Origin: an uncultured Gemmatimonadaceae bacterium
GTDB lineage: Bacteria; Gemmatimonadota; Gemmatimonadetes; Gemmatimonadales; Gemmatimonadaceae
Assembly (NCBI GenBank): GCA_963724885.1
Contig: CAVRWG010000002.1
Coordinates: 114,150-178,149, forward strand
Direction of reading: 5' to 3'
DNA length: 64,000 bases
In this document: piece after piece, positions 1-11,177 of the stretch
Layout: every line of letters begins with the position of its first letter
Position numbering within the stretch: the first letter of the stretch is position 1
Position numbers and translations under genes: made by a program
Notes under the pieces: model-generated
The model's input: only the letters and a program-made list of their open reading frames with translations
Database searches by the model: none
What the model was told of the DNA's origin: nothing

Positions 1-1335
1 CGGTGTCTTCACGGAAGCGTCCTCCGGGAGCTCCACGATCACGCGAACGCCGTACACGATGCCGCTGCGGCCCATCGCCTCGAGTGCGCGCAGCCCGCGC
101 GCGGACTCGATCGACGCCGGCAGCCAGTCGCCGCCCGGCGTGTGCGTCTCGAGCGCGCGCCACTGCCACGCAAGCGCAAGCGTCGGCGCGCCCGCGAGCA
201 CCAGCACGAGCAGCGGCCGGTTCACGATCCAGCCGCTCCAGCGTCGCCAGATATCCGCACGGTCGCGCGCGCCGGGCCGCGCGCGTCGCAGGCGCGGGGC
301 GTCGATGCGATCGCCGAGGATCGCCAGCGCTCCGGGAAGCAGCGTCGTCGCCATCAAGACGGAGACGGTGGTCACGAGCGCGCCGCCGATCGCGATGGAG
401 CGGAGGTCGGGGAGCGGCACCAGCAGGAGCGCGAGGAAGCCGACGAGCACCGCGGCGCCGGAGAGGGCGATGCTGTGGCCGGCGCGCGACGCGGCCTCGA
501 CGGCGGCCGCTTCGACGCCACCACCCCGGCGGCGGCTCTCGCGAAACCGGCTCACGAGGAGCAGCGCGTAGTCGATGCCGAGCCCCAGGCCCAGCATCGT
601 CGCGACGTTGAGCACCAGGATGGAAACGGGGAACAACCGGGCGACCAGCGCCACGACGCCCATCGTGACCGCGATCGCGAGCGCGCCGATTGCGACCGGA
701 ATGGCGGCGGCCACGAGCGCCCCGAACGCGATCGCGAGCAGCACGAGTGTCAACGGAAGCACCCGGCGCTCGGCGCGATTGGCATCGTCGGCGCTCACGC
801 GGCGCAGGTCCACCGTCAGCGGCAACTCGCCGGTCCAGAGGAGCTCCGCCCGCGGATGCCGGGCGCGCAGCTCGGCGACGAGTGCCGCGGTCGTGGCGCG
901 CAGCGACGGGAGGACGGCGTCGACGCTCGTGCCGCTTTCCCCCTCACGAAAGCCGACCATGACGAACGTGCTTCCGTCCCGTGCCGCGAACAGCGTGTCC
1001 GGCGCGTCGAGCAGGGAGAAGGTGGCCGCCACCGCGCTGTTGGCTCGCACCCGGCCGACGATCCGCGCCAGCGTCGCGCGGCCGCTGTCCTGAAACGGGC
1101 TCGGAATGCCGCGCACCACCAGCACGGCATGACGCGCGAAAGGAGATGCGAGCCGGTCGCCCATGAGCACCGCGGCACGCGCGGACTCGCTTCCCGGGAC
1201 GCGCGTGCCCGTGTCGAGCCGCTGCTCCACGCCGCGGGCGAAGGGAATCAGCGCCGCCGCAACGAGCGCCCACGCGACGAGCACGGCACGGCGGTGCCTG
1301 ACGATGAACTCCGGAAAGCGCGCCAGGTAGCTCAT
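1..1335 (-). CDS. MMPL/RND-superfamily membrane transporter (MmpL-like), N-terminal part; 3' end lies beyond the window start
   Basis: Reverse strand from ATG (rc of 1333-1335) translates MSYLARFPEFIVRHRRAVLVAWALVAAALIPF... followed by multiple hydrophobic helices and a periplasmic domain, typical of MMPL exporters. It is absent from the ORF track because no stop codon falls inside the window. The start overlaps the stop of the upstream gene (ATGA). Confidence 0.7.
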   Translation of the reverse strand, partial: MSYLARFPEFIVRHRRAVLVAWALVAAALIPFARGVEQRLDTGTRVPGSESARAAVLMGDRLASPFARHAVLVVRGIPSPFQDSGRATLARIVGRVRANSAVAATFSLLDAPDTLFAARDGSTFVMVGFREGESGTSVDAVLPSLRATTAALVAELRARHPRAELLWTGELPLTVDLRRVSADDANRAERRVLPLTLVLLAIAFGALVAAAIPVAIGALAIAVTMGVVALVARLFPVSILVLNVATMLGLGLGIDYALLLVSRFRESRRRGGGVEAAAVEAASRAGHSIALSGAAVLVGFLALLLVPLPDLRSIAIGGALVTTVSVLMATTLLPGALAILGDRIDAPRLRRARPGARDRADIWRRWSGWIVNRPLLVLVLAGAPTLALAWQWRALETHTPGGDWLPASIESARGLRALEAMGRSGIVYGVRVIVELPEDASVKTP

Positions 1336-2504
1336 CAGACGAGTGCCGTCTCGTGGTGCAGCAGCCTGCCGGAGAACATGTCGGGATCCGCGGAGCCGCG
1401 GGCGGTCGTGACGTACGCGCCGACGGCTGTCGGCTGTGCGAGCAAGCCCCGGACGGCCGCGCACATCGGGTCGCGCGCATCCAGGCCGATGGTGATGAAC
1501 GCGTAGTTCCGGCCGCAGTAGCGGCGGTACGCCTCCAGCACGAGCGCACGCAACACGTGCGTCTCCCGGGCGCAAACATGCACCGTCGCCAGCGCCGGCA
1601 GCACGGATCCCGCCGCGGGCAGCGGCACGCTGCCCACGAGCGGGGCGACGACGTTGATCGCCCGACGCACGATTGCGAGGCGCCGTGAGTAGCCTACCAC
1701 GCGCATCTGCTTGAAGGCCGCCTGGTCCCAGACGCCGAGGAACCCCCGGACGCGACCGGCGGCGTCCGTGGCCAGGAGATAGTTCGGCACCGTCAGGCCT
1801 GGCGCGCGACGGATCCAGGCGGCGAGGTGATCAGCGTCTCCCATGCCGGCGTCCGCGAACTGCCGCGTCGGGGCATAGCGCCGCCACGCCGCCGCCATCG
1901 CGTCGAGGTCGCCGTCGGTTGCCTGGCGCACGTGAATCCCCGACACGCGTTCGCGACGCTCCCAGAGCAGCGGGATGGCCCACACGGATAGCGTTGCAAA
2001 GCGCGAGAGCACGGCCGATCCGCGCGGCCCGCGCGTGCGATTCTCCATCGCCGAATTCCCGCCGAGGATCGTGCAGACGAGCGGCGCGTCCGGCCCGCAG
2101 AGGTCGGCCGCCGCCTCGCCCGCGTAACGTGTCAAGCGGTCGGCCGCACCCGAACGACGCGCACGCGGGTGCACCTTGAGGTCGCCGACATACGTGATGG
2201 GCCGCACCACGTCGTTGACGTACGCCAGCCTCCGCGCGGCGGCCACGCAGCCGACCACGTCTCCTTCGGCGTCCGGGATCACGCCGATTCGCGAGCGATT
2301 GCCCTCCAGGCGGTTGAGCGCGAAGAAGTCCGGCGAGCGGTCCATGCGCAGCGCGACGTCGCCGTGCATGGTGCACGCGGCCGTCAGCTCGATGAGAGCC
2401 TTGTTGTCCGCCGCGACGGCCTCGCGCACCCCCAGGTCTTCGCCGGAACCGGCCGGTGCCGGAGCCCGGCTCGCGATGGCCGTCATGGGCCGCTCACCCG
2501 GCAC
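1335..2504 (-). CDS. GNAT-like acyl/acetyl-transferase
   Basis: 389-aa ORF with an acyl-CoA-binding-like motif VHPRARRSGAADRL (R-x-x-G-x-A) and the size of a two-domain GNAT. It is translationally coupled to both neighbours. Confidence 0.45.
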   Translation of the reverse strand: MPGERPMTAIASRAPAPAGSGEDLGVREAVAADNKALIELTAACTMHGDVALRMDRSPDFFALNRLEGNRSRIGVIPDAEGDVVGCVAAARRLAYVNDVVRPITYVGDLKVHPRARRSGAADRLTRYAGEAAADLCGPDAPLVCTILGGNSAMENRTRGPRGSAVLSRFATLSVWAIPLLWERRERVSGIHVRQATDGDLDAMAAAWRRYAPTRQFADAGMGDADHLAAWIRRAPGLTVPNYLLATDAAGRVRGFLGVWDQAAFKQMRVVGYSRRLAIVRRAINVVAPLVGSVPLPAAGSVLPALATVHVCARETHVLRALVLEAYRRYCGRNYAFITIGLDARDPMCAAVRGLLAQPTAVGAYVTTARGSADPDMFSGRLLHHETALV

Positions 2505-4217
2505 ACGACAACACGTGGTTGCAGGGCGCTGCGATCCTCGCGGATCAACGCAGCGCCGAGCTGGCGATCCTCCTCAAGGCGTGTGCTGCCACCGGGAAGG
2601 TCTGTCCAGCCGACGAAGTTGCGGAACACGAGGCGCGCGCCCGGGGCGGCGACGCGTTCGACCTCGCGAAACAGCGCCGGGATCTCCGCCTCACTCAGCC
2701 ACTCGCAGATGTTGGACAGCGCGAACGCGTTCACCGAGCGGTCCGGCAGCGTCCGCAGGTGGTCCGTCATGCCGCCGTCCACGAGCAACAGGCTGCCGGT
2801 GCCACCCGCGATGACCCCGCACCCGCGCGCGCCGAGGTAGGGCGGCACGCCTTCCGGCTGCTCAATCCGGATACCGCCCCAGGAGCATGTGGTGCAGGAA
2901 GTAGTTGTCGGCGATCGGGATCGCGGTGAGCGCATGGCTCGCGAGCGCGCAGGAAATGTCCGGCGAAGCTCGTCTGCCCGGCGCTGCGCGAAGAAGCGCG
3001 GGTCGAATGCGCGCGACATCGACCACCGGTTGAGCAGCACCGTGAACATCCAGCGCCACCGTCGCGTGTCCCATTCGCGCGTGAAAAGGTCCTGTTGCTC
3101 CTCGAGCGAGCGGCAGGCCAGCAGGCGCTCGACGCGCGACGGCGTCTGTACGACGTGCCGCACGAACCAGCACACGAGCCGGATGAAGCGCTCGCTGACG
3201 CCCGCATTGATTGCGCCCCGCGCCACCGAGGTCGATCGTGCGTCCCAGTACGCCCGCGCCGCGTCGGTGAGCCGGGGGCGCAGCGTCCGGTACAGTTCGA
3301 TGCGTCGCCGGCCGGGCATGTCCTGCCCGCCGAGGAAGGCGATCGCGGTCTCGCGCGCGAGGCCGCAGACGGCGGCGATCTTGAGCTCGACGAGATGGTT
3401 TTGCGCGCGATTCACGTCCACGGCGTGCACCTGCACGCGCGCCGGCGCCCAGCAGCGACAGCGCCGTGCATCCGCCCGAGCTGACCACGACGACGCGGTC
3501 GCCGGGCTGCACGTCGAGCGCGTCGATCTCGACGCGCGCGTCCTCGCGCACCTGCGCGAAGTACAGCCGGTCGTCGCGCGCGCTCGGCAACGCGACACGC
3601 TCGATGCCGAAGGCGCGCCGCTGAGGGGGCGCTGGACGGTGGGTGCGGTCACGCGCCTGCCTCCATCCCAGTTCGAGCGTAAGCGTGTCGTAGACCTCGC
3701 GGTCCACCGCCGCGTAGCGCCGCATGATGTCTTTCACTTCGGCGCCGCGCACGAGCGCCTGTTCGTCGAGCCAGTCCTTCACCCAGGACAGGTGCCCCTG
3801 TTCCTCGTCGAGCATCTGGCGCAGCGTCGCCTGCACCGCCGGATGCGTTCCGGGACGGCGCAGATGCTCGGTGAAGTGCCGGTAGACACGTCGCTCGAAG
3901 ACCTGCGTCAGCGCCAGGACGTGCAGCACGCCGACCGGGTGGCCGACGACGGCCGCGTAGCGCGTCTGGTACGTGTCGCGCACCGGCTGCACGCGTCCAC
4001 CGACCGCCAGGATGGCGTCCGTCCACACCCGCGCGTGCAACACTTCCTCGGCCGAGTGCTCGAGCAGCTTGCTGGCGAGATGGCCGTCCCGCGTGCGACG
4101 CGCGACCTGTCCGAGGATCAGCCCGCCGTGCAGCTCGGACGCGCGATAGAAGTTGAGGAAGCGCAGCTCGCCCTCGGATACCTGCGGCGCACCGCGCTTG
4201 AGTGACGTCGTCGTCAT
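2483..4217 (-). CDS. Fusion protein: N-terminal ferritin-like di-iron domain plus C-terminal BtaA-like (DUF3419) SAM:3-amino-3-carboxypropyl transferase domain; apparent -1 frameshift near 3440-3460
   Basis: From ATG at 4217 (MTTTSLKRG...) one frame carries the E..EHSAEEVLH and LDEEQGHL di-iron motifs, then the BtaA N-terminal signature FAQVREDARVEIDALDVQPGDRVVVVSSGGCTALSLL. The rest of the BtaA domain (...LVDGGMTDHLRTLPDRSVNAFALSNICEWL...) continues in the frame of track ORF 2483..3652, so the reading frame is interrupted once. Confidence 0.55.
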
Positions 4218-4939
4218 ACGGCCTCCTTGAGATGATCGACGAGCCGAACGCCGCACAGGCGCTCGATGCGTCGGGCAAAGGTGCGAATCGCGAGGGGGTC
4301 GCCGGGCAGCGCGACGGGCACTTCCTCCACGGCCCGCTCGCCGAAGTGCCTGAAGTGCGTCGCGGCATCCAGGACGCGGGGAATCACCGTCGGATCGGCC
4401 GCGATGCGCTTGGCGATCAGGTCGGACGCGCTCTGCGCGTGCCGCACCTCGTCCGCCGCGATGAGCGCGAGCAGGTGCGCCAGCACCGGCTCGCGCGTCT
4501 GTTCGCCGAGCCGGCGGAAGAAATAGGACGCGAGATGCTCGCTGAGCATGAACTCGACGAGCCGCTCGATGAGATCGTAGTGGCCCTGGTCGGCATTCCT
4601 TGCAGCCCGGCGCATCTCGACGATGTCGTCGTCCGTCAGTGCCGGCTCGTAGCCCACGGCGTCGAGATACATCCGAAGCGCATGGAAGTGCTTGAAGCCC
4701 TCGTACATCTCGAGCGAGAACACGACACCGGCGTCGACGTCGTCCCACGTCTCCGCCAGGAGTCGCTGGAGATGCACCGGGTGATACGACTCGATGAGCG
4801 CGGCAATCCGGAGCGATGCATGCAGCTCGCGCTCGGGCGCGGCGGCGCCCGGGTCGATGTCGGCCCAGCGCACGTCGCGCTCGACCGACCAGCCACCGCG
4901 GTCCGCGGCGCTCGCGTGGCGCGCGTACAGGCGTCTCAT
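4214..4939 (-). CDS. Ferritin-like di-iron oxygenase/desaturase (acyl-ACP desaturase / AurF-like fold)
   Basis: Internal start MRRLYARHAS (rc ATG at 4937-4939) overlaps the stop of the upstream ligase gene by ATGA. Carries EHLASYFF...ADEVRHAQ helix motifs (E-x-x-H pairs). The long N-terminal extension shown in the track is Arg-rich junk in a GC-rich frame. Confidence 0.5.
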   Translation of the reverse strand: MRRLYARHASAADRGGWSVERDVRWADIDPGAAAPERELHASLRIAALIESYHPVHLQRLLAETWDDVDAGVVFSLEMYEGFKHFHALRMYLDAVGYEPALTDDDIVEMRRAARNADQGHYDLIERLVEFMLSEHLASYFFRRLGEQTREPVLAHLLALIAADEVRHAQSASDLIAKRIAADPTVIPRVLDAATHFRHFGERAVEEVPVALPGDPLAIRTFARRIERLCGVRLVDHLKEAV

Positions 4940-5835
4940 CGCAAAGCCTCCTCGAGCGCCGGCGCGTCCGTGGCGACCAGCGACGCCAGGAGCCAGCGCT
5001 CGAGGCCGAACGCGACGCACGCGGTGAACGCGGGCGAGCCGTCCGCCAGGCGGATGTCGAACGCCTCGCCGAAGAAACGGTCGTGCAGGTTGAATGACGC
5101 CGCCGCCACGGTCTCCCCGTCTCCGACGGGCAGCCGCAGCTCGTGCTTCAGCTCCTTGAGCCGCTGGAGCACCGCGCGGCCACGCCCCGTCGGAGCGAAG
5201 AACGGGTCCTCGGCGGGCGCGAGCTCGTGCTCGAGCTGCAGCTGCCGGGCGAACGCGCGCGCGAACGCGATGCCGCGATCGCGAAACGCGATGCACTCGG
5301 CTTCCGTCCCGATGCACACGATCTCGCGCATCGTGAACGCCCAGCCGCGTTCGAGCGGGCTGAGACGATCGCCCTCGTGCCGCCAGCAGCAGCCCTGCGC
5401 CGTCACGGTGCGTCGCGCACCGACGATCGTATTGGCGAGCGCGGCATACACGTGGTAGCACACGGCGGGTGGCAGCGCGACGCTGGCGGGGACGCCGGCC
5501 CCGCCGGCCTCACGCGCGGGGTGATCGCTCCGCGCGATCGCCTCGAGCGCGCGGGGATCCTCGGTGAGATGCGTGGCCAGCGTGAGCCACTGGGGGAACG
5601 ACGCGAAGTAGTCGGCGCGCTCGAGCACGCCGAGCGGCACGGCGGCGGGCACGGACCACTCGTCGCGCGTCTCCGCGCGACAGCGCACGGCGAGGAGCGA
5701 GTCCAGGCGCGCGAATCGCGCGCGCGTCTCGCCCGAGAGGCCCACGAGGCCGGGCGCCGGCTCCCACAGCTCGCCTCGCGCCCTGAGCCCGGCGATGATG
5801 CCGTCACGCTGCCGCATCGGCTTTCTCCAGGACAA
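4936..5835 (-). CDS. Amino acid:[carrier protein] ligase (class II aminoacyl-tRNA synthetase catalytic-core paralog, SerRS-like, no tRNA-binding arm)
   Basis: Class II motif 2-like CWRHEGDRLSPLERGWAFTMREIVCIG and motif 3-like GSPAFTACVAFGLERWLLA. About 300 aa with no N-terminal coiled-coil. It sits immediately downstream of an approximately 80-aa carrier protein, as in the Bradyrhizobium/Agrobacterium aa:CP ligase loci. Confidence 0.6.
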   Translation of the reverse strand: MSWRKPMRQRDGIIAGLRARGELWEPAPGLVGLSGETRARFARLDSLLAVRCRAETRDEWSVPAAVPLGVLERADYFASFPQWLTLATHLTEDPRALEAIARSDHPAREAGGAGVPASVALPPAVCYHVYAALANTIVGARRTVTAQGCCWRHEGDRLSPLERGWAFTMREIVCIGTEAECIAFRDRGIAFARAFARQLQLEHELAPAEDPFFAPTGRGRAVLQRLKELKHELRLPVGDGETVAAASFNLHDRFFGEAFDIRLADGSPAFTACVAFGLERWLLASLVATDAPALEEALR

Positions 5836-6073
5836 AGACTTCGGCGATGCGCTGGACCGAATGGAAGTTGTCCAGGCGGATCTGGGCGTCGGGGATCTCG
5901 CGTCCGATCTCGCGTTCGGTCCACGCGATGAGATCGAGCACCTTGATGGAGCTCACGAGGCCCGAGGCGAACAGGGGCGTGCGCGCACCGACGACGACGC
6001 CGGGGGGCGCCAGACGCGCGGTGATCCATTGCAGCATGCGCGCGACGAAGCGCGCGCGAGTGGCGGTCATCAT
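5804..6073 (-). CDS. Small acyl/aminoacyl carrier protein (ACP-like, about 80 aa)
   Basis: MMTATRARFVARMLQWITARLAPPGVVVGARTPLFASGLVSSIKVLDLIAWTEREIG...: a four-helix-sized protein with a Ser in an xGLxSSxxxLDLI context resembling a phosphopantetheine attachment site. The start ATG overlaps the reductase stop (ATGA). Confidence 0.55.
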   Translation of the reverse strand: MMTATRARFVARMLQWITARLAPPGVVVGARTPLFASGLVSSIKVLDLIAWTEREIGREIPDAQIRLDNFHSVQRIAEVFVLEKADAAA

Positions 6074-7125
6074 GCGGCCTCCAGCACCTGTGCGGTGCCA
6101 ACGAGGTGATCTGTCATGTTCGCCCAGAAGGACGCGACTGGCGGCGCGCTCTCGCCCAGCAGCGCGTCCGCGGCCCGCGTCTCGAAGCGCTTCGGGTGCG
6201 CGAGTTGCGGAACGAAGTGGCTCAGCGACTGCAGCGCCTGGCGCACGCGCGGGCTGGCGGCATCGTGCACCGCGCGCTCGAAGAGGCGGTACGTCTCGAG
6301 GTCGGTGCGCACGGGGCGCGCGATCCCCTTGCGGCGCCAGGCCGGCGCGCGAAGAAAGGCGTCGTAGCTGACGTCGAGCAGGTCGTCGAGCGGCATGGCG
6401 CCGGCGCCCGCGCAGAAGTGGAAGCTCTGGCGCGCCACATCCGGCGCCAGCGCGACGCGCGCGATCCCGCGCGCGACGTACTCGGTGGTCACGACGTCCA
6501 CGACCGACTCGTCGGTGCCGGGGAGCATCGGGGCCAGCCCGCCGAAGTAGAGGCGCAGGGCCCGATGCACGGCGTTCATTTGCGAGATCAGGCCGCGCGA
6601 GTCGTCGCAGACGATCGTGGCGGGGCGGGCGATGGCCCAGTCGGTGCGCGCCGCGCGCACCAGGTCCTCGGCCTCGGCTTTCGACTGCTCGTAGGCGTTC
6701 GCCCAGCCCGGCGGGTCCACGCCATCGTTCTCCGCGATCGATCCCGTGCGCAGGCCGGCGACGAACGCCGTGCTCACGTACACCCAGCGCGAGACATCGG
6801 GCCAGTCCGCCGACAGTTCCAGCAGGCGGCGCGTGCCATCCCGGTTGGTCCCGCGGGCGTCGTCGAGCGACTGCGAGAAGGACGTGTTCGCGGCGAGGTG
6901 AACGACCATCGTCACTTCACGCGCGAGTTGCGCGCGCACCGCCGGGCCGAGGCCCAGTCCGTCCAGGCGCAGGTCGCCCTGCAGCGCCGGAAGTCCGCCA
7001 ACGGTTTCGGGCCGCCGAGCGAGCACATACACGCGCTCGACCTCGTGGTCGGCCAGCAGGCGACGAACGACCTCGCGTCCGATCAGGCCCGTGGCGCCCG
7101 TCACGAAGCAGCAGTGTCCCGTCAT
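6070..7125 (-). CDS. NAD(P)-dependent thioester/fatty-acyl reductase (extended SDR, terminal-reductase-domain type)
   Basis: N-terminal Rossmann motif CFVTGATGLIGREVVRRLL, an YxxxK-type region (YEQSKAEAE), and a 351-aa length typical of fatty acyl-CoA reductase or NRPS/PKS R-domains. Confidence 0.6.
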   Translation of the reverse strand: MTGHCCFVTGATGLIGREVVRRLLADHEVERVYVLARRPETVGGLPALQGDLRLDGLGLGPAVRAQLAREVTMVVHLAANTSFSQSLDDARGTNRDGTRRLLELSADWPDVSRWVYVSTAFVAGLRTGSIAENDGVDPPGWANAYEQSKAEAEDLVRAARTDWAIARPATIVCDDSRGLISQMNAVHRALRLYFGGLAPMLPGTDESVVDVVTTEYVARGIARVALAPDVARQSFHFCAGAGAMPLDDLLDVSYDAFLRAPAWRRKGIARPVRTDLETYRLFERAVHDAASPRVRQALQSLSHFVPQLAHPKRFETRAADALLGESAPPVASFWANMTDHLVGTAQVLEAA

Positions 7126-7128
7126 GGC

Positions 7129-8100
7129 TCACGCCTCGAGCGCGAGGCCGGTCCAGTGCGCGCCGTACCCGTAGGAGAACAGCAGGATCCTGTCTCCGGC
7201 GTTCACGGCGCCGCCGTCCAGCGCGTCGCGCAGGTTGATGAAGTTGTCGCCCGCGAGCGTGTGGCCGATGCGGGCGATGTTGCCGCTCCAGAGCCGCGCG
7301 TTGGGAAGCGCGGCGAGCCGGAGCAGGATCTCCCAGCTCGTGGCGCTCACGTTGTGCGGCATGATCCAGTTGACGGTGTCCGGCTGCCACCCGGCGTCGG
7401 CGACGGTGCGGCGCATCACGCGCACCGCCGTGGGGAAGTACGACGCCATCACTTCGTCGCGCATCGCCGCGCCGCCGGCCCAGTAGAAGCCCTTGGTGAC
7501 CGAGGCGCCGCCGACGATGCGATTGCGCGTGGCGTCGCGCTCCACCAGCACGGCGCAGGCGGCGTCCGAGGTGCAGTTGGTGATCGCCTCCCGCCCGGCC
7601 GCCGCCGGATAGAACTCGCTCGCGACACACAGCACGCGCTCGAGCCCCTCCGCGACGCACAGCGCGCGCGCGAGCCGCACGGCGCCGAGGATCGCGGTGC
7701 AGGCCAGCTGGTCGAGGCCGAGCACCGTCGCGTGGTCGAGGCCGAGGTCGAACTGGAGCCGCGTGCCCGGATACTCGAAGCGGCCCGTGTCGCACAACGC
7801 ACTGGCTCTCGCGGCGGCGTCCCGTGGCTTGGAGAACGCGATCACGCCGGGAGCGCCGCAGTACAGCAGCGCGTCGATCGACAGCGGATCGACGTGATGA
7901 TCGCGCAGCAGGTCGGACGCGGCCGTGAGCGCGAGGTCGTACGGCGTCTCCTCGACGGCGACACCCACGCGGTCGAATCCGAAGCGCTCGAGCAGGCCGG
8001 CGTCCGACTCCAGTGATCCCGCGGCCGCCAGCTCGCGCACCGAGCGCGACACCGCGGGCACGGCGTAGGAGATGGCCGGGATGCCGGGGCGCGCGATCAT
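7129..8100 (-). CDS. 3-oxoacyl-ACP synthase III (FabH)-like condensing enzyme, atypical
   Basis: Start MIARPGIPAISYAVPAV (rc ATG 8098-8100). Thiolase-fold pattern with a Cys in LDQLACTAILGA, IMPHN and GNIARIGHT segments in KASIII-like positions, and a C-terminal YGYGAHWTGLAL. The residues deviate from canonical FabH, so a divergent KASIII-like acyltransferase is suggested. Confidence 0.5.
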   Translation of the reverse strand: MIARPGIPAISYAVPAVSRSVRELAAAGSLESDAGLLERFGFDRVGVAVEETPYDLALTAASDLLRDHHVDPLSIDALLYCGAPGVIAFSKPRDAAARASALCDTGRFEYPGTRLQFDLGLDHATVLGLDQLACTAILGAVRLARALCVAEGLERVLCVASEFYPAAAGREAITNCTSDAACAVLVERDATRNRIVGGASVTKGFYWAGGAAMRDEVMASYFPTAVRVMRRTVADAGWQPDTVNWIMPHNVSATSWEILLRLAALPNARLWSGNIARIGHTLAGDNFINLRDALDGGAVNAGDRILLFSYGYGAHWTGLALEA

Positions 8101-8693
8101 CGGATGGACTCCAGCTGGGCCACCGCGAGCACGTAGCCGGGCCACGGAGCCGTCAGCCTGGTGGCGGCGCGGAACCGCGCGCCCAGGCAGTGAACGCCGC
8201 GGACGTCGCCATCGTCGATCTCCAGCTCGAGCTCGTGAAAACCGACGCTGGAATCCAGTTCCAGCGCCTTCCACGCCGCTTCCTTCATCGCCCACAGCAC
8301 CGCGGCCGCGATGGACCCGGCGGAGCGGCGCTCGCGGGCGGTGAGGAAGAAGCGCTCGCGGGCCGGATCGATCGCTTCCAGGTTCTCGAGATCGATGCCG
8401 ATGTGCGATCCATCGGTCGCGGCGACCGCAGCCGCGAGTCCGTCGCGATGCGTCAGCGAGAGGGCGACTCTGCGACGCGCGGAACCCTCTCCGACGAGGT
8501 GCGCCAGGGGTGCGCGGTTGGCGCGGCGCTGAACCTCGATGGTTCCGCGGTCGCCGACGAGTTTACGAATGGCGCGATGGGCCGCGATGCGCGACGCGAC
8601 GAGCTCTGCGTCGGGCCTGAGGCCATCCGCCGACGGCAACTCCGCGACGGTCGCGAGCGCGACCACTGGATGACCACTGAATTGAGCCGGCAT
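8097..8693 (-). CDS. 4'-phosphopantetheinyl transferase (Sfp/AcpT type)
   Basis: HIGIDLENLEAI and WAMKEAAWKAL motifs. Likely start MPAQFSGHPV preceded by a gaggtgg RBS-like sequence. The stop overlaps the KASIII-like start. Confidence 0.6.
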   Translation of the reverse strand: MPAQFSGHPVVALATVAELPSADGLRPDAELVASRIAAHRAIRKLVGDRGTIEVQRRANRAPLAHLVGEGSARRRVALSLTHRDGLAAAVAATDGSHIGIDLENLEAIDPARERFFLTARERRSAGSIAAAVLWAMKEAAWKALELDSSVGFHELELEIDDGDVRGVHCLGARFRAATRLTAPWPGYVLAVAQLESIR

Positions 8694-8789
8694 CGTCCCA
8701 CCTCGGTGCATTGTTCGCACGTAAGGTGGGTCGTCCCAACGGCCTCAAAAATCAGTCTGTTTACGTAGCAGGAGCGGCCGAAACTACGT

Positions 8790-9746
8790 ATGGGGGCCGG
8801 GGACGTCGCCTTTCGAGGCTTTAACGGCGCGTTGCTGACTTCTCTGCACCTCGCGGAGCACTCAGCATCAAACTGCGCAGTGTGCCGCTTTCCATTTGCT
8901 ATAGTGACGCCAACCCGATCGGAGACACCGCTGGAAGTATTGGACGCGCAGCGCATCGTCGCTGGTGGTCGCCGTGGGAGCTCCCGACCCATTCTCGTCG
9001 AGACGACGGGCGGGCGTCGCCTGGTCAAGCTGCGCGGCGCCGCTCAGGGAACCGGCCCTCTCATCGCGGAAATCATCGTCGGCACGCTGGCGCAGGCGAT
9101 CGGGCTCTCTGTTCCCGGCCGCTGCCTCGTGAGACTGCGCCCCGGCATCGAGACTGTGGACGGTGACGACGAGCTCGCGGATCTGGTCGGCGCGAGCGCC
9201 GGCATCAACCTCGGCGTCGACTATCTCGACGATGCGCAGGAGATAGTCGCGTCTGATGTCGCGAGCATCCCGCTCGCGACGCAGGCCAGGATTCTCTGGC
9301 TCGACCGGCTGGTGCTCAACTCCGATCGCACTGGCCGGAACTCGAATCTCCTGAAGTGGCGGCGGCACCTCTGGCTCATCGATCACGGCGCGTCGCTGCC
9401 GTTTCAGTACGACTGGGCATCGGTGACGGAAGATCTCCCGGGGCAGCCAGGCTGGATGCGCGAGGCACATCTGTTCGAGGCATCGGTCCCGAACGCGCTA
9501 CTGTGGGAGACGGACCTGGCGCTGGGAGCGCTCCTCTCGCGCGACGTCGTCGGGTGCGCCGCGTCGCTCGTGCCGGATGAGTTCCTGCACACGCTCGATG
9601 CGTCGCAGCGTCGCCGGCGCCGCGCGGCGTTCGCAGCGTTCCTGTGGAAGCGTCTTCGAAGTCCACGACCGTTCCTCGGCGAACGGGCGTTGCCAGTCCA
9701 TCGCCCCGGCGCCAAGCCAGCATGGGTCCGGCGGAGCCCGCCCTGA
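8790..9746 (+). CDS. HipA-like / atypical kinase-fold protein (hypothetical)
   Basis: Segment LVLNSDRTGRNSNLLKWRRHLWLIDHGASL resembles the HipA catalytic loop (D-x-x-x-x-N-x-x-LL) and an IDHG (DFG-like) element, but the canonical His and Lys are replaced. Transcribed divergently from the biosynthetic operon. Confidence 0.3.
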   Translation: MGAGDVAFRGFNGALLTSLHLAEHSASNCAVCRFPFAIVTPTRSETPLEVLDAQRIVAGGRRGSSRPILVETTGGRRLVKLRGAAQGTGPLIAEIIVGTLAQAIGLSVPGRCLVRLRPGIETVDGDDELADLVGASAGINLGVDYLDDAQEIVASDVASIPLATQARILWLDRLVLNSDRTGRNSNLLKWRRHLWLIDHGASLPFQYDWASVTEDLPGQPGWMREAHLFEASVPNALLWETDLALGALLSRDVVGCAASLVPDEFLHTLDASQRRRRRAAFAAFLWKRLRSPRPFLGERALPVHRPGAKPAWVRRSPP

Positions 9747-9752
9747 CCTCGG

Positions 9753-11177
9753 TTATTTCTTCCGCGCCAGCTGCTCCACGACGTCCCACTGGAACCGCAC
9801 GAACTTGTGCAGCTCGCTCTCCAGGATGCGTTCCTGGTCGCTGTGCGCGCCGAACCCCTTGGGCCCGTCCTCGACGTCGAACGCGGGGCCGATACCGTAA
9901 CATTGCATGCCTTTCGCGCGGAGATAGGCCATGTCGGTCGCGCCGGTGAGCATGGTCGGCAGCGTCACCGTCTGATAGTGCCGCGTGACGGCGGCCTCGA
10001 TGGCGCGGAACGCATCTGTGTCGAGTCGTGCCTGGGGCGTCTCGGGACGCACGTCGCGCCGCGCGTAGGCGACGGTGATGGCCGGGTCGTTGATGACGCC
10101 GCGCACGGTCTCGAGGAACGCGGCGGTGTCCTCGCCGGGCACCATGCGGACGTCGAGCGTCGCCTTCGCCTCCGACGGGATCACGTTCACGCGGTACCCC
10201 GCCTGGACGATGTTGGGCGAGATGGACGTGCGGATGACCGACGCGTGCGCCGGCTCGAATTCGAGGAAGTACTCGTCGGTGACGGCGACGCTCGTGCCGT
10301 CGTTGCCGGTGATCGCGCGATACCGGCCGGCGCTGTCCGCGCCGGAGATGGACGCGAGCCGCTGGAAGTAGGTGCGGGTCGTCTCGTTCAGCTTGATGGG
10401 CGTTCGATACGCGGCGATCTTCGCGACCGCCTGCGCCAGGTGCGCCACGGCGTTGCCGCGCAGCGGCACGGAACCGTGGCCCGCGGGACCGCGCGCGGTC
10501 AGCTCGATGGCGCGCGGGATCTTCTCGGTGGTCGAGACGCCGGCGAACTTGACGCGCCCGCCGACGCGCGCGACGGCGCCGCCTTCGGCGAGACAATACT
10601 CCGCTTCGATCTTCGGGAAGTGCTCGCGCGTCATGTGCTGGATGCCGACGCGCGTGGAGCCCTCCTCGCCCGCTTCCGCGAGGAAAATCACGTCGCGATC
10701 CAGCGGCACCGCGAGCCGCTTGAGTGTGAGCATGAGCATCAGGGCGGCGACCACGTTGTCCTTGTCGTCCACCGCGCCGCGGCCGTAGACGTAGCCGCCG
10801 TCGCGCGTCGCGCTGAATGGCGGGTGCGTCCACTTGGCGGGGTCCACGTTCACGACGTCCGTGTGGCCCATGATCAGCAGCGGTCTTTTCGTTCCGCTCC
10901 CCTTGAGCCGGGCCACCAGGTTGGGGCGATTCGGTTCGAGGGCGAACGTCTCGACCGGAATGCCTTCCTTCTCGAGCACCTGCTTGAGGTACTCGACGGC
11001 CGCGCGCTCCGTGCCCGGGGGATCGCTGGTGTCGAACCGCAGCAACGCCTGAAAGTGTTGCATGGTCTCGGCTTCGATGCCGGGCCAGTCGGGCTGTCGG
11101 GGACGCTGGGCCGGAGCGACTGAGAATGCGCTCAGGGCCAGCGGGAGTAGCACGTATTGTCCGAGTGAGTGACGCAT
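9753..11177 (-). CDS. M20-family metallopeptidase (secreted; dipeptidase/carboxypeptidase type)
   Basis: Signal peptide MRHSLGQYVLLPLALSAFSVAPAQ, and M20 motifs HTDVV, GAVDDK, EEGS and GGAV... across 474 aa. Confidence 0.75.
   Translation of the reverse strand: MRHSLGQYVLLPLALSAFSVAPAQRPRQPDWPGIEAETMQHFQALLRFDTSDPPGTERAAVEYLKQVLEKEGIPVETFALEPNRPNLVARLKGSGTKRPLLIMGHTDVVNVDPAKWTHPPFSATRDGGYVYGRGAVDDKDNVVAALMLMLTLKRLAVPLDRDVIFLAEAGEEGSTRVGIQHMTREHFPKIEAEYCLAEGGAVARVGGRVKFAGVSTTEKIPRAIELTARGPAGHGSVPLRGNAVAHLAQAVAKIAAYRTPIKLNETTRTYFQRLASISGADSAGRYRAITGNDGTSVAVTDEYFLEFEPAHASVIRTSISPNIVQAGYRVNVIPSEAKATLDVRMVPGEDTAAFLETVRGVINDPAITVAYARRDVRPETPQARLDTDAFRAIEAAVTRHYQTVTLPTMLTGATDMAYLRAKGMQCYGIGPAFDVEDGPKGFGAHSDQERILESELHKFVRFQWDVVEQLARKK

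What the first reader, a model, noticed from the sequence alone, without database searches (positions are those of the whole stretch)
4936..6073. aaRS-paralog ligase and its dedicated carrier protein as the loading module
The roughly 300-aa protein keeps class II motif 2/3-like segments (RHE...TMREI and GSPAFTACVAFGLERW) but has no N-terminal tRNA-binding coiled coil. The adjacent ORF is an approximately 80-aa helical protein with an SS-containing LDLI motif, as expected for a phosphopantetheine site. This is the hallmark of aa:CP ligases and gives the cluster its distinctive chemistry.
Basis: partly seen in the sequence, partly recalled or inferred. Interest (0 to 1): 0.7.

Follow-up and report, generated by a model that had tools for sequence, protein, structure and literature searches.

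The report
aaRS-like ligase with its carrier protein
Two overlapping genes encode a tRNA-synthetase-derived enzyme that most likely loads a small amino acid onto its own carrier protein; the enzyme family is known, but here it sits in a conserved Gemmatimonadota lipid-type operon that could reveal what the family is for.

Summary

**The ligase.** Window 4936-5817 (-) encodes a 293-aa protein.
- It matches the solved Bradyrhizobium Bll0957 glycine:[carrier protein] ligase (E 2.9e-33).
- The AF2 model has pLDDT 93.7 and matches Bll0957 over its full length (TM 0.82).
- It has the methanogen-type SerRS catalytic core but no tRNA-binding domain.
- The zinc ligands (C120/E165/C267) and the motif 2/3 arginines are conserved.

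**The carrier protein.** Window 5804-6073 (-) overlaps the ligase start by 14 nt and encodes an 89-aa carrier protein.
- The attachment serine is Ser42, the second S of "SS". It is invariant in 74/74 relatives.
- A carrier gene lies directly upstream of the ligase in all 74 assessable related loci and in more distant contexts.
- Four relatives are natural carrier-ligase fusions.

**The operon.** Ten translationally coupled genes run PPTase, KASIII-like, thioester reductase, CP, ligase, two diiron proteins, BtaA-like DUF3419, tandem GNAT, MMPL exporter. The arrangement is conserved across Gemmatimonadota and differs from the Bradyrhizobium context.

**Not determined.** The amino acid loaded and the final product are unknown. 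An exported amino-lipid is my inference.

This is a new, divergent member of a known family. Its value lies in the operon, because the biological role of aa:CP ligases is reported as unknown.

The parts
4936..5817 (-). amino acid:[carrier protein] ligase, 293 aa. Class II aaRS catalytic core of the methanogen-SerRS type, with no tRNA-binding domain.
   Evidence: PDB Bll0957 E 2.9e-33. NCBIfam NF005479 E 4.8e-47. AF2 pLDDT 93.7. Foldseek 4H2S_B E 1e-26, TM 0.82/0.81. The ATG start at 5817 equals database protein P0001.
5458..5460 (-). Cys120 codon, zinc ligand 1 (= Bll0957 Cys131)
   Evidence: Alignment. Conserved 100% in near and 99% in distant relatives. Codon checked.
5323..5325 (-). Glu165 codon, zinc ligand 2 (= Bll0957 Glu176), within FTMREI
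5017..5019 (-). Cys267 codon, zinc ligand 3 (= Bll0957 Cys279), within TACVAFGLER. Motif 3 Arg274 lies at 4996-4998.
   Evidence: Invariant column in alignment A1..
5374..5382 (-). Motif 2 R146-H-E148 (= Bll0957 R159/E161), the ATP/adenylate-binding element
5152..5193 (-). Residues 209-222, PTGRGRAVLQRLKE: a basic helix. It is equivalent to the Bll0957 segment that differs between the wild-type and 'engineered' PDB sequences.
   Evidence: The 3MEY and 4H2W alignments differ only in this segment. The model predicts a helix at 209-221. The segment is strongly conserved within the near family. That this segment sets carrier specificity is from my memory of Mocibob 2013, not tested here.
5804..6073 (-). 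Dedicated carrier protein, 89 aa. Its stop overlaps the ligase start by 14 nt.
   Evidence: PF00550 E 3.3e-4. Best PDB matches are free-standing type II PCPs. Conserved immediately upstream of the ligase. Fused to the ligase in P0135, P0189, P0170 and P0202.
5948..5950 (-). Ser42 codon, the predicted 4'-phosphopantetheine attachment site (second S of GLVSSI)
   Evidence: Invariant in 74/74 cluster carrier proteins. The preceding position is D43/N22/S7/T2. It aligns with the DS serine of PCPs and of fusion protein P0135.
8097..8720 (-). Sfp-type 4'-phosphopantetheinyl transferase, first gene of the operon. Expected to convert apo-CP to holo-CP.
   Evidence: PF01648 E 1.3e-8 and PF17837. ATGA overlap with the next gene. 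PPT-CP-ligase occurs as an isolated trio in L047.
7129..8100 (-). KASIII (FabH)-like thiolase-fold enzyme with a Cys134-His249-His280 triad
   Evidence: PF08541 and PF08545. PDB FabH alignments. Triad invariant in 70 cluster homologs.
6070..7125 (-). Stand-alone thioester/acyl reductase (NAD_binding_4)
   Evidence: PF07993 E 6e-40. TIGR01746 E 3e-29. Best PDB matches are the MxaA terminal reductase and a fatty acyl-CoA reductase.
4214..4939 (-). Diiron-carboxylate protein resembling acyl-ACP desaturases. Its start shares an ATGA overlap with the ligase stop.
   Evidence: PDB M. tuberculosis DesA2 E 5.6e-7. PF03405 weak match. Junction.
3650..4217 (-). Second ferritin-like diiron domain (weakly COQ7-like). 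In this window it is in frame with the N-terminus of DUF3419.
   Evidence: NF033656 E 4e-4. Frame analysis. It is a separate gene in relatives.
2483..3620 (-). DUF3419 (BtaA-like, SAM-dependent) protein, with an apparent 1-nt frameshift near 3431
   Evidence: PF11899 E 2.2e-36. Frame switch in a GC run. Relatives read through the junction in one frame.
1335..2486 (-). Tandem-GNAT acyltransferase, 383 aa
1..1338 (-). MMPL/RND-type exporter; the N-terminal 445 aa lie in the window and the gene runs off the left edge
   Evidence: Translation. NCBIfam MmpL3 domain E 7e-35 and TIGR00833. Conserved at the operon end.

Best explanation
Genes 4936-5817 and 5804-6073 (minus strand) form an amino-acid loading module of the aa:CP-ligase type.

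Proposed steps:
1. The operon's own Sfp-type PPTase (8097-8720) converts the 89-aa carrier protein to its holo form on Ser42.
2. The 293-aa zinc-dependent SerRS-like ligase activates a small amino acid with ATP as an aminoacyl-adenylate.
3. The ligase transfers the amino acid to the pantetheine thiol of that carrier, giving aminoacyl-S-CP, without any tRNA.
4. Translationally coupled neighbours then process the tethered amino acid: a KASIII-like Cys-His-His enzyme, a thioester reductase, two diiron proteins, a BtaA-like DUF3419 protein and a tandem GNAT. An MMPL transporter exports the product, probably a lipidated amino-acid or amino-alcohol derivative.

Shown here: homology, fold, catalytic and zinc residues, the carrier serine, synteny, gene fusions and gene overlaps.

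Inferred: the ligase activity itself, by homology to the solved Bll0957-CP complex.

Inferred with low confidence: the substrate. Gly or Ala is favoured only because Ala269 matches Bll0957 Ala281, and the role of that residue is from my memory of the literature.

Also low confidence: the order of downstream steps and the lipid nature of the product.
For: Sequence, family and fold:
- phmmer E 2.9e-33 to Bll0957 'Amino acid--[acyl-carrier-protein] ligase 1' over 242 residues, and E 2.8e-11 to type-2 SerRS.
- NCBIfam NF005479 E 4.8e-47.
- The AF2 model (pLDDT 93.7) superposes full-length on Bll0957 in complex with its carrier (4H2S_B, E 1e-26, TM 0.82/0.81). It covers only the catalytic half of SerRS.

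Catalytic residues:
- Zinc ligands C120/E165/C267, motif 2 R146/E148 and motif 3 R274 are conserved at 95% or more in 118 near and 130 distant relatives.

Carrier protein:
- PF00550 hit and free-standing PCPs as the best PDB matches.
- Ser42 is invariant in 74/74.

Linkage of ligase and carrier:
- The carrier is directly upstream of the ligase in 73/74 loci with at least 41% identical ligase, and by Pfam in the remaining one. Percent identities of ligase and carrier across loci correlate (r = 0.71).
- A carrier is also adjacent in Sorangium, Streptomyces and Bradyrhizobium.
- Four natural CP-ligase fusion proteins exist.
- A PPTase-CP-ligase trio occurs alone in L047.

Operon:
- ATGA or short overlaps link all ten genes.
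- The operon is conserved: KASIII 66/68, reductase 69/71, diiron 62/64, MMPL 39/46.
Against: - There is no biochemical evidence for this protein.
- It is divergent: 32-37% identity to Bll0957, no Pfam hit at E 0.01 or better, and an NCBIfam score of 160 against an equivalog cutoff of 357.
- The carrier is only marginally above the Pfam threshold. It is not detectably related to the Bradyrhizobium carrier (E 0.62) and lacks the canonical Asp before the serine.
- Amino-acid specificity cannot be read from the sequence.
- The DUF3419 gene appears frameshifted in this window, so the pathway could be partly defective in this organism, or the assembly may carry an error.
- The gene context differs from that of the characterised enzymes, so downstream chemistry cannot be transferred from them.
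Confidence: 0.85

Rival explanations
1. The carrier protein carries an acyl chain made or primed by the KASIII-like enzyme and released by the reductase. The SerRS-like enzyme makes an aminoacyl-adenylate but transfers the amino acid to a different acceptor, such as a lipid hydroxyl or amine or a small molecule, rather than to the carrier.
For: KASIII-like and fatty-acyl-reductase-like genes flank the carrier. The operon has only one carrier gene. aaRS paralogs with non-tRNA, non-CP acceptors are listed in the review PMC9437257.
Against: Natural CP-ligase fusions exist. The carrier stays next to the ligase in contexts that lack KASIII and the reductase (L022, L047, L080, L083). The closest solved homolog was crystallised bound to its carrier (4H2S). 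The segment that differs between the wild-type and engineered Bll0957 sequences is retained without gaps.
Confidence: 0.08
2. It is a split or truncated seryl-tRNA synthetase that still charges a tRNA, possibly with a partner that supplies tRNA binding.
For: Several sources name the relatives 'seryl-tRNA synthetase'. The catalytic core is SerRS-like.
Against: There is no tRNA-binding domain. No tRNA or other Rfam family lies in 1-10000. The gene is embedded in a PPTase/CP/reductase operon. The review PMC9437257 states that aa:CP ligases have lost canonical tRNA aminoacylation activity. The source names look like automatic transfers.
Confidence: 0.02
3. It is a catalytically inactive pseudo-enzyme or scaffold retained in the operon.
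For: Low similarity to Pfam tRNA-synt_2b (no hit). One neighbouring gene appears frameshifted.
Against: All zinc, ATP-binding and other core residues are invariant or nearly so across hundreds of relatives. The model is confident and superposes on the active enzyme.
Confidence: 0.02

Closest known systems
Bradyrhizobium japonicum Bll0957, glycine:[carrier protein] ligase 1, with its carrier protein (PDB 3MEY, 3MF1, 4H2S)
   Same: Same fold and size. No tRNA-binding domain. Same Cys-Glu-Cys zinc site and the same motif 2/3 residues. The segment that differs between the wild-type and engineered Bll0957 sequences is retained. A small dedicated carrier protein is encoded nearby.
   Different: Only 32-37% identical and below the NCBIfam equivalog cutoff. 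The carrier is of a different sequence type (E 0.62) and lies directly upstream with an overlapping stop and start. The Bradyrhizobium neighbours are an acyl-CoA-dehydrogenase-like protein and a 294-aa unknown protein, not PPTase, KASIII, reductase, diiron and MMPL genes.
Methanogen-type (type-2) seryl-tRNA synthetase (PDB 3W3S, 2CIM)
   Same: Homologous zinc-dependent class II catalytic domain (E 2.8e-11; TMq about 0.8).
   Different: SerRS carries a large N-terminal tRNA-binding domain (TMt about 0.5; 477-527 aa against 293 aa) and charges tRNA. The window protein lacks that domain and is paired with a carrier protein.
Stand-alone NRPS adenylation enzyme plus type II peptidyl carrier protein pairs (e.g. 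PltL and PigG systems; DltA/DltC)
   Same: Same logic: ATP-dependent activation of an amino acid and thioesterification to a free-standing carrier for downstream tailoring. The window carrier's best PDB matches are such PCPs.
   Different: The activating enzyme is a class II aaRS fold, not an ANL-superfamily adenylation domain.
LbH (hexapeptide) transferase-CP-ligase-GNAT clusters in Sorangium and Bdellovibrionota
   Same: A homologous ligase with a carrier immediately upstream and a GNAT downstream. One relative is a ligase-GNAT fusion (P0212).
   Different: Those ligases often carry an extra N-terminal domain of about 90 aa. Those clusters also lack the KASIII, reductase, diiron and MMPL genes.

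Membership tests
amino acid:[carrier protein] ligase (aa:CP ligase; SerRS-like class II aaRS homolog) | Class II aaRS catalytic core homologous to methanogen-type SerRS | tested here: met
   E 2.8e-11 to 3W3S and 4.5e-5 to 2CIM. Foldseek E 7e-20 to 1e-17, TMq about 0.8.
amino acid:[carrier protein] ligase (aa:CP ligase; SerRS-like class II aaRS homolog) | Absence of the N-terminal tRNA-binding domain | tested here: met
   293 aa. The model aligns end to end with Bll0957 (TMq 0.82, TMt 0.81) but with only about half of SerRS.
amino acid:[carrier protein] ligase (aa:CP ligase; SerRS-like class II aaRS homolog) | Active-site zinc triad Cys-Glu-Cys (Bll0957 C131/E176/C279) | tested here: met
   C120, E165 and C267 align exactly and are at least 95% conserved. 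The Bll0957 residue numbers come from my recollection of Mocibob 2010; they fit the PDB sequence index minus a 20-residue tag.
amino acid:[carrier protein] ligase (aa:CP ligase; SerRS-like class II aaRS homolog) | Motif 2 and motif 3 arginines for ATP/adenylate binding | tested here: met
   R146/E148 and R274 are conserved at 99-100%.
amino acid:[carrier protein] ligase (aa:CP ligase; SerRS-like class II aaRS homolog) | Carrier-recognition helix (the segment exchanged in the engineered Bll0957, PDB 4H2W) | tested here: inconclusive
   The segment is present without gaps, is a predicted helix (209-221), is basic and is family-conserved. Contact with the carrier was not modelled.
amino acid:[carrier protein] ligase (aa:CP ligase; SerRS-like class II aaRS homolog) | Dedicated small carrier protein with a pantetheinylated serine encoded next to the ligase | tested here: met
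   89-aa PF00550 protein overlapping the ligase start, with Ser42 invariant. Adjacency holds in 74/74 assessable loci, and fusion proteins exist.
amino acid:[carrier protein] ligase (aa:CP ligase; SerRS-like class II aaRS homolog) | ATP-dependent aminoacylation of holo-CP and no tRNA aminoacylation | not testable with these tools
   Requires enzyme assays and mass spectrometry.
NCBIfam NF005479 equivalog (Bll0957-type amino acid--[ACP] ligase) | Score at or above the curated cutoff of 357 bits | tested here: not met
   160.5 bits, E 4.8e-47. The protein is a homolog but not a member of that equivalog; it belongs to a divergent subfamily.
Seryl-tRNA synthetase (the name several sources give to relatives) | tRNA-binding N-terminal domain and equivalog-level score | tested here: not met
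   The domain is absent. Scores are 63.6 bits against a 611-bit cutoff (NF002120) and 52.7 against 489.55 (TIGR00415).
Phosphopantetheine-binding carrier protein (PF00550) | Pfam gathering score and a conserved attachment serine at the start of helix II | tested here: met
   21.3 bits against 20.8, which is marginal. Ser42 aligns to the DS serine of solved PCPs and is invariant in 74 relatives. The usual Asp at -1 is Ser here.

The most novel reading that the evidence does not exclude
The conserved Gemmatimonadota operon is an undescribed carrier-protein-dependent amino-lipid pathway. It comprises PPTase, KASIII-like (Cys-His-His), thioester reductase, CP, aa:CP ligase, two diiron oxygenases, BtaA-like DUF3419, tandem GNAT and an MMPL exporter.

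In this reading the aaRS-derived ligase supplies the amino-acid head group as aminoacyl-S-CP. The head group is then C- or N-acylated, reductively released as an amino aldehyde or alcohol, tailored and exported. One possible outcome is a PLP-independent route to a sphingoid-like or N-acyl-amino-alcohol lipid. Such a lipid could correspond to the unidentified major 'aminolipid' reported for Gemmatimonas groenlandica (PMC7844134).

This would give aa:CP ligases their first physiological role.
Probability: 0.3. Interest if true: 0.75.

Novelty: new member of a known kind. Interest (0 to 1): 0.5.

Why it matters
aa:CP ligases link ribosomal-type amino-acid activation to carrier-protein thioester chemistry. 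[quoted passage not shown]

The window's module is an ordinary member of the family in its own anatomy. Its setting is what makes it useful:
- It sits in a tightly coupled ten-gene operon conserved across Gemmatimonadota. The set includes a MAG labelled Gemmatimonas aurantiaca, a species that has been cultured.
- The operon carries its own PPTase, a condensing or acyl-transfer enzyme, a reductive release enzyme and a lipid-type exporter.

That gives a concrete system, testable genetically and biochemically, for finding out what the aminoacyl-carrier is used for.

The analysis also corrects a widespread mis-annotation of these genes as "seryl-tRNA synthetase" or "hypothetical protein".

Tried and rejected
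1. Exact look-ups of the 299-aa and 293-aa ligase in the contig index found nothing. Context therefore came from homologs.

2. I suspected that the many relatives of about 395 aa were all carrier-ligase fusions. Pfam found no PP-binding domain in 10 of them. phmmer with the window carrier found only four true fusions. The rest carry an uncharacterised N-terminal domain of about 90 aa.

3. My first query for the 'ferritin-like' gene (3649-4248) was in the wrong frame, and its tblastn hits were off-frame artefacts of conserved GC-rich DNA. The frame analysis and a repaired query replaced it.

4. The carrier's weak hit to 'ACP_for_OlsHI' led to the planctomycete GH3-dependent ornithine-lipid pathway. 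That pathway uses unrelated enzymes, so I dropped the lead.

6. The primary papers (Mocibob 2010 and 2013) are not in the library. Searches for Atu2573/Bll6282 and for any biosynthetic role of these ligases found nothing useful.

7. The afdb50 fold library was unavailable.

8. Amino-acid specificity could not be assigned. Only the Ala269 = Bll0957 Ala281 identity was noted.
Full report
**What is at the coordinates**

The region 4936-6073 holds two minus-strand ORFs.

The longer one is listed from a TTG at 5835 (299 aa). The public gene model starts at the ATG at 5817 and gives 293 aa (P0001, 100% identity; sequence).

The shorter one, 5804-6073, encodes 89 aa. Its stop overlaps the ligase start by 14 nt. 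This exact protein is a called gene in public records, and JGI names close relatives 'acyl carrier protein'.

The assigned frames show the codon-position GC pattern of real genes in this 70% GC sequence: GC3 is 0.91 for the ligase and 0.84 for the carrier. ORFs overlapping them on either strand have GC3 of 0.51-0.82. No RNA family is detected in 1-10000.

**The ligase**

Similarity evidence:
- Pfam finds nothing at E 0.01 or better.
- phmmer against PDB sequences gives E 2.9e-33 to Bll0957, 'Amino acid--[acyl-carrier-protein] ligase 1', over 242 residues. It gives 2.8e-11 and 4.5e-5 to the type-2 (methanogen) SerRS.
- NCBIfam's aa--[ACP] ligase model NF005479 matches with E 4.8e-47. The score of 160 bits is well below the 357-bit equivalog cutoff. 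SerRS models score far lower.
- An AlphaFold2 model built on 65 sequences is confident (pLDDT 93.7, pTM 0.90).
- Its best PDB matches are all Bll0957 entries, led by the ligase-carrier complex 4H2S (E 1e-26, TMq 0.82, TMt 0.81).
- Methanogen SerRS matches only with its catalytic half (TMq about 0.8, TMt about 0.5). The protein is therefore the bare class II core without a tRNA-binding domain.

Catalytic residues:

| Role | Window residue | Bll0957 residue |
|---|---|---|
| Zinc ligand 1 | C120 | C131 |
| Zinc ligand 2 | E165 | E176 |
| Zinc ligand 3 | C267 | C279 |
| Motif 2 | R146 / E148 | R159 / E161 |
| Motif 3 | R274 | R286 |

- The Bll0957 numbers are PDB sequence indices minus a 20-residue tag. 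The identity of the three zinc ligands comes from my recollection of Mocibob 2010.
- All of these residues are at least 95% conserved in 118 close and 130 distant relatives.
- The segment that distinguishes wild-type from 'engineered' Bll0957 in the PDB corresponds to window residues 209-222, PTGRGRAVLQRLKE. It is a basic predicted helix and is highly conserved within the Gemmatimonadota family.
- From memory of Mocibob 2013, that segment sets carrier specificity.

**The carrier**

- PF00550 is matched just above threshold (21.3 bits against 20.8).
- The best PDB matches are free-standing type II peptidyl carrier proteins (2MY5, PltL, PigG). In those alignments the window's GLVSSI lines up with G(V/I)(I/L)DS(L/M).
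- In 74 carrier sequences from related loci, Ser42 is invariant. Position 41 is Asp (43), Asn (22), Ser (7) or Thr (2).
- The attachment site is therefore the second serine, and the 'SS' is a variant of the canonical 'DS'.
- The carrier is not detectably related to the Bradyrhizobium carrier (E 0.62).

**Is the pairing conserved?**

A scan of one genome per species returned 156 relatives, of which 80 loci were kept. Nearly all are Gemmatimonadota.

- Among loci whose ligase is at least 41% identical and that have enough upstream sequence, 73 of 74 have a detectable homolog of the window carrier ending a median of 8 nt before the ligase.
- The one exception, a Bdellovibrionota genome, has a hexapeptide-transferase::PP-binding fusion protein in that position.
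- Percent identities of ligase and carrier across loci correlate (r = 0.71).
- In Sorangium, where the ligase is 40% identical, a 75-aa PF00550 protein (E 5.8e-12) sits immediately upstream.
- In a Streptomyces locus the carrier is just downstream.
- In Bradyrhizobium it is two genes away.
- One Gemmatimonadaceae genome has PPTase-carrier-ligase as an isolated trio.
- Among 150 representatives at 50% identity, four proteins are natural carrier-ligase fusions. Their N-termini match the window carrier at E 7e-17 to 7e-12, and the fusion shown (P0135) carries a canonical DS motif.

**The operon**

| Gene | Coordinates (minus strand) | Evidence (calls) |
|---|---|---|
| Sfp-type PPTase | 8097-8720 | 3 |
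| KASIII-like enzyme | 7129-8100 | 3, 34, 42 |
| NAD_binding_4 thioester reductase | 6070-7125 | 3, 31, 82 |
| Carrier protein | 5804-6073 | 3, 19, 29 |
| aa:CP ligase | 4936-5817 | 4, 31, 49 |
| Acyl-ACP-desaturase-like diiron protein | 4214-4939 | 35 |
| COQ7-like ferritin domain | about 3650-4217 | 24, 31 |
| BtaA-like DUF3419 protein | 2483 to about 3620 | 3, 24 |
| Tandem GNAT | 1335-2486 | 3, 68, 84 |
| MMPL exporter (runs off the window) | 1-1338 | 15, 31 |

- Every junction that could be read is an ATGA or similarly short overlap, or a 3-nt spacer. The ferritin/DUF3419 boundary is instead continuous in frame.
- The same order is seen in a 59%-identical homolog on a 285-kb contig. There a radical SAM/SPASM gene replaces the second ferritin gene.
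- Conservation across related loci: KASIII 66/68, reductase 69/71, diiron 62/64, DUF3419 45/53, GNAT 43/50, MMPL 39/46.
- The reductase's best solved relatives are the myxalamid MxaA terminal reductase and a fatty acyl-CoA reductase.
- The KASIII-like enzyme has an invariant Cys-His-His triad rather than the FabH Cys-His-Asn.
- The context of characterised Bll0957-type enzymes is different: carrier, acyl-CoA-dehydrogenase-like protein, ligase and a 294-aa unknown.

**Mechanism**

The most likely sequence is:
1. The PPTase makes holo-CP on Ser42.
2. The ligase forms an aminoacyl-adenylate at the zinc site.
3. The ligase thioesterifies the amino acid to the pantetheine arm.

These steps are inferred from homology to the solved complex. 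They are supported by residue conservation, synteny and the fusion proteins, but were not tested.

The amino acid is unknown. Ala269 equals Bll0957 Ala281, which from memory restricts that enzyme to small substrates. Gly or Ala is therefore a weak guess.

Downstream steps are speculative. The thiolase-fold enzyme could acylate the tethered amino acid on C-alpha or on N, or it could move it to an acceptor. The reductase could release an aldehyde or an alcohol. The diiron proteins, the BtaA-like protein and the GNAT would tailor the product, and the MMPL transporter would export it. A GNAT using a carrier-tethered donor has a precedent in SbzI (PMC11685415, abstract seen). Gemmatimonas groenlandica is reported to have an unidentified major aminolipid (PMC7844134); this is compatible with the idea but does not demonstrate it.

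**Comparison and novelty**

As a ligase-carrier pair this is a new, divergent member of the aa:CP ligase family described in 2010-2013. It is not a new kind of system.

It fails the NCBIfam equivalog cutoff and is annotated in public sources as 'hypothetical protein' or 'seryl-tRNA synthetase'.

What I could not find described is the conserved Gemmatimonadota operon around it. I searched the held library, which is incomplete, so absence there is not proof. [quoted passage not shown] The operon therefore offers a direct way to test that question.

**Verdict**

| Item | Assessment |
|---|---|
| Observation | confirmed |
| Confidence in the loading-module explanation | 0.85 |
| Interest | 0.5 |
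| Most novel reading still open | a carrier-dependent amino-lipid pathway that gives this enzyme family its first physiological role |
| Probability of that reading | about 0.3 |

Noticed in passing
window 3425-3445 (minus strand), within the DUF3419 gene 2483 to about 3620: There is an apparent 1-nt insertion in the GC run GGCGCCGGCGCGCG. The N-terminal 55 or so residues of DUF3419 (…SSGGCTALSLLGAGA) are in one frame and the rest (VQVHAVDVNRAQNHL…) in another. Relatives read through this point in a single frame. It is either an assembly error or a real frameshift/pseudogene.
   Followed up: partly
window 3650-4217 (minus strand): A ferritin-like, weakly COQ7-like diiron domain runs without a stop codon into the N-terminus of DUF3419. 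In relatives the two are separate genes in different frames. In L001/L002 the ferritin gene is absent and a radical SAM/SPASM gene sits between the GNAT and MMPL genes.
   Followed up: partly
window 7129-8100 (minus strand): The KASIII/FabH-like enzyme has a Cys134-His249-His280 triad instead of the FabH Cys-His-Asn. The triad is invariant in 70 cluster homologs. A KAS I/II-type triad in a KASIII-type sequence is unusual, and its chemistry is unknown.
   Followed up: partly
[not shown]
   Followed up: partly
window 1-8720 (minus strand): All ten genes from the PPTase to the MMPL exporter are joined by ATGA or TGATG overlaps, a 14-nt overlap or a 3-nt spacer. This suggests a single translationally coupled operon.
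   Followed up: yes
L022:8852-10885; L080:8551-11921; protein P0212: The ligase-carrier pair has a second recurrent context. In Sorangium it is hexapeptide (LbH) acyltransferase, CP, ligase, GNAT. In a Bdellovibrionota genome it is a JmjC-like gene followed by an LbH::CP fusion. P0212 is a 743-aa ligase-GNAT fusion protein.
   Followed up: partly
proteins P0129, P0132, P0134, P0140, P0146, P0149, P0164 (relatives, not in the window): Many relatives of about 380-410 aa carry an N-terminal domain of about 90 aa. It has no Pfam match and is not a carrier domain. Its function is unknown.
   Followed up: no
L047:9010-10903: One Gemmatimonadaceae genome carries PPTase, CP and ligase (57% identical) as an isolated trio. 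It is flanked by an amidohydrolase gene and a large LuxR-type regulator gene, without the rest of the operon.
   Followed up: partly
window 8790-9746 (plus strand): A HipA_2-like kinase gene (PF20613, E 1e-14) is transcribed divergently from the operon, only about 70 bp from the PPTase start. No link to the operon was examined.
   Followed up: no
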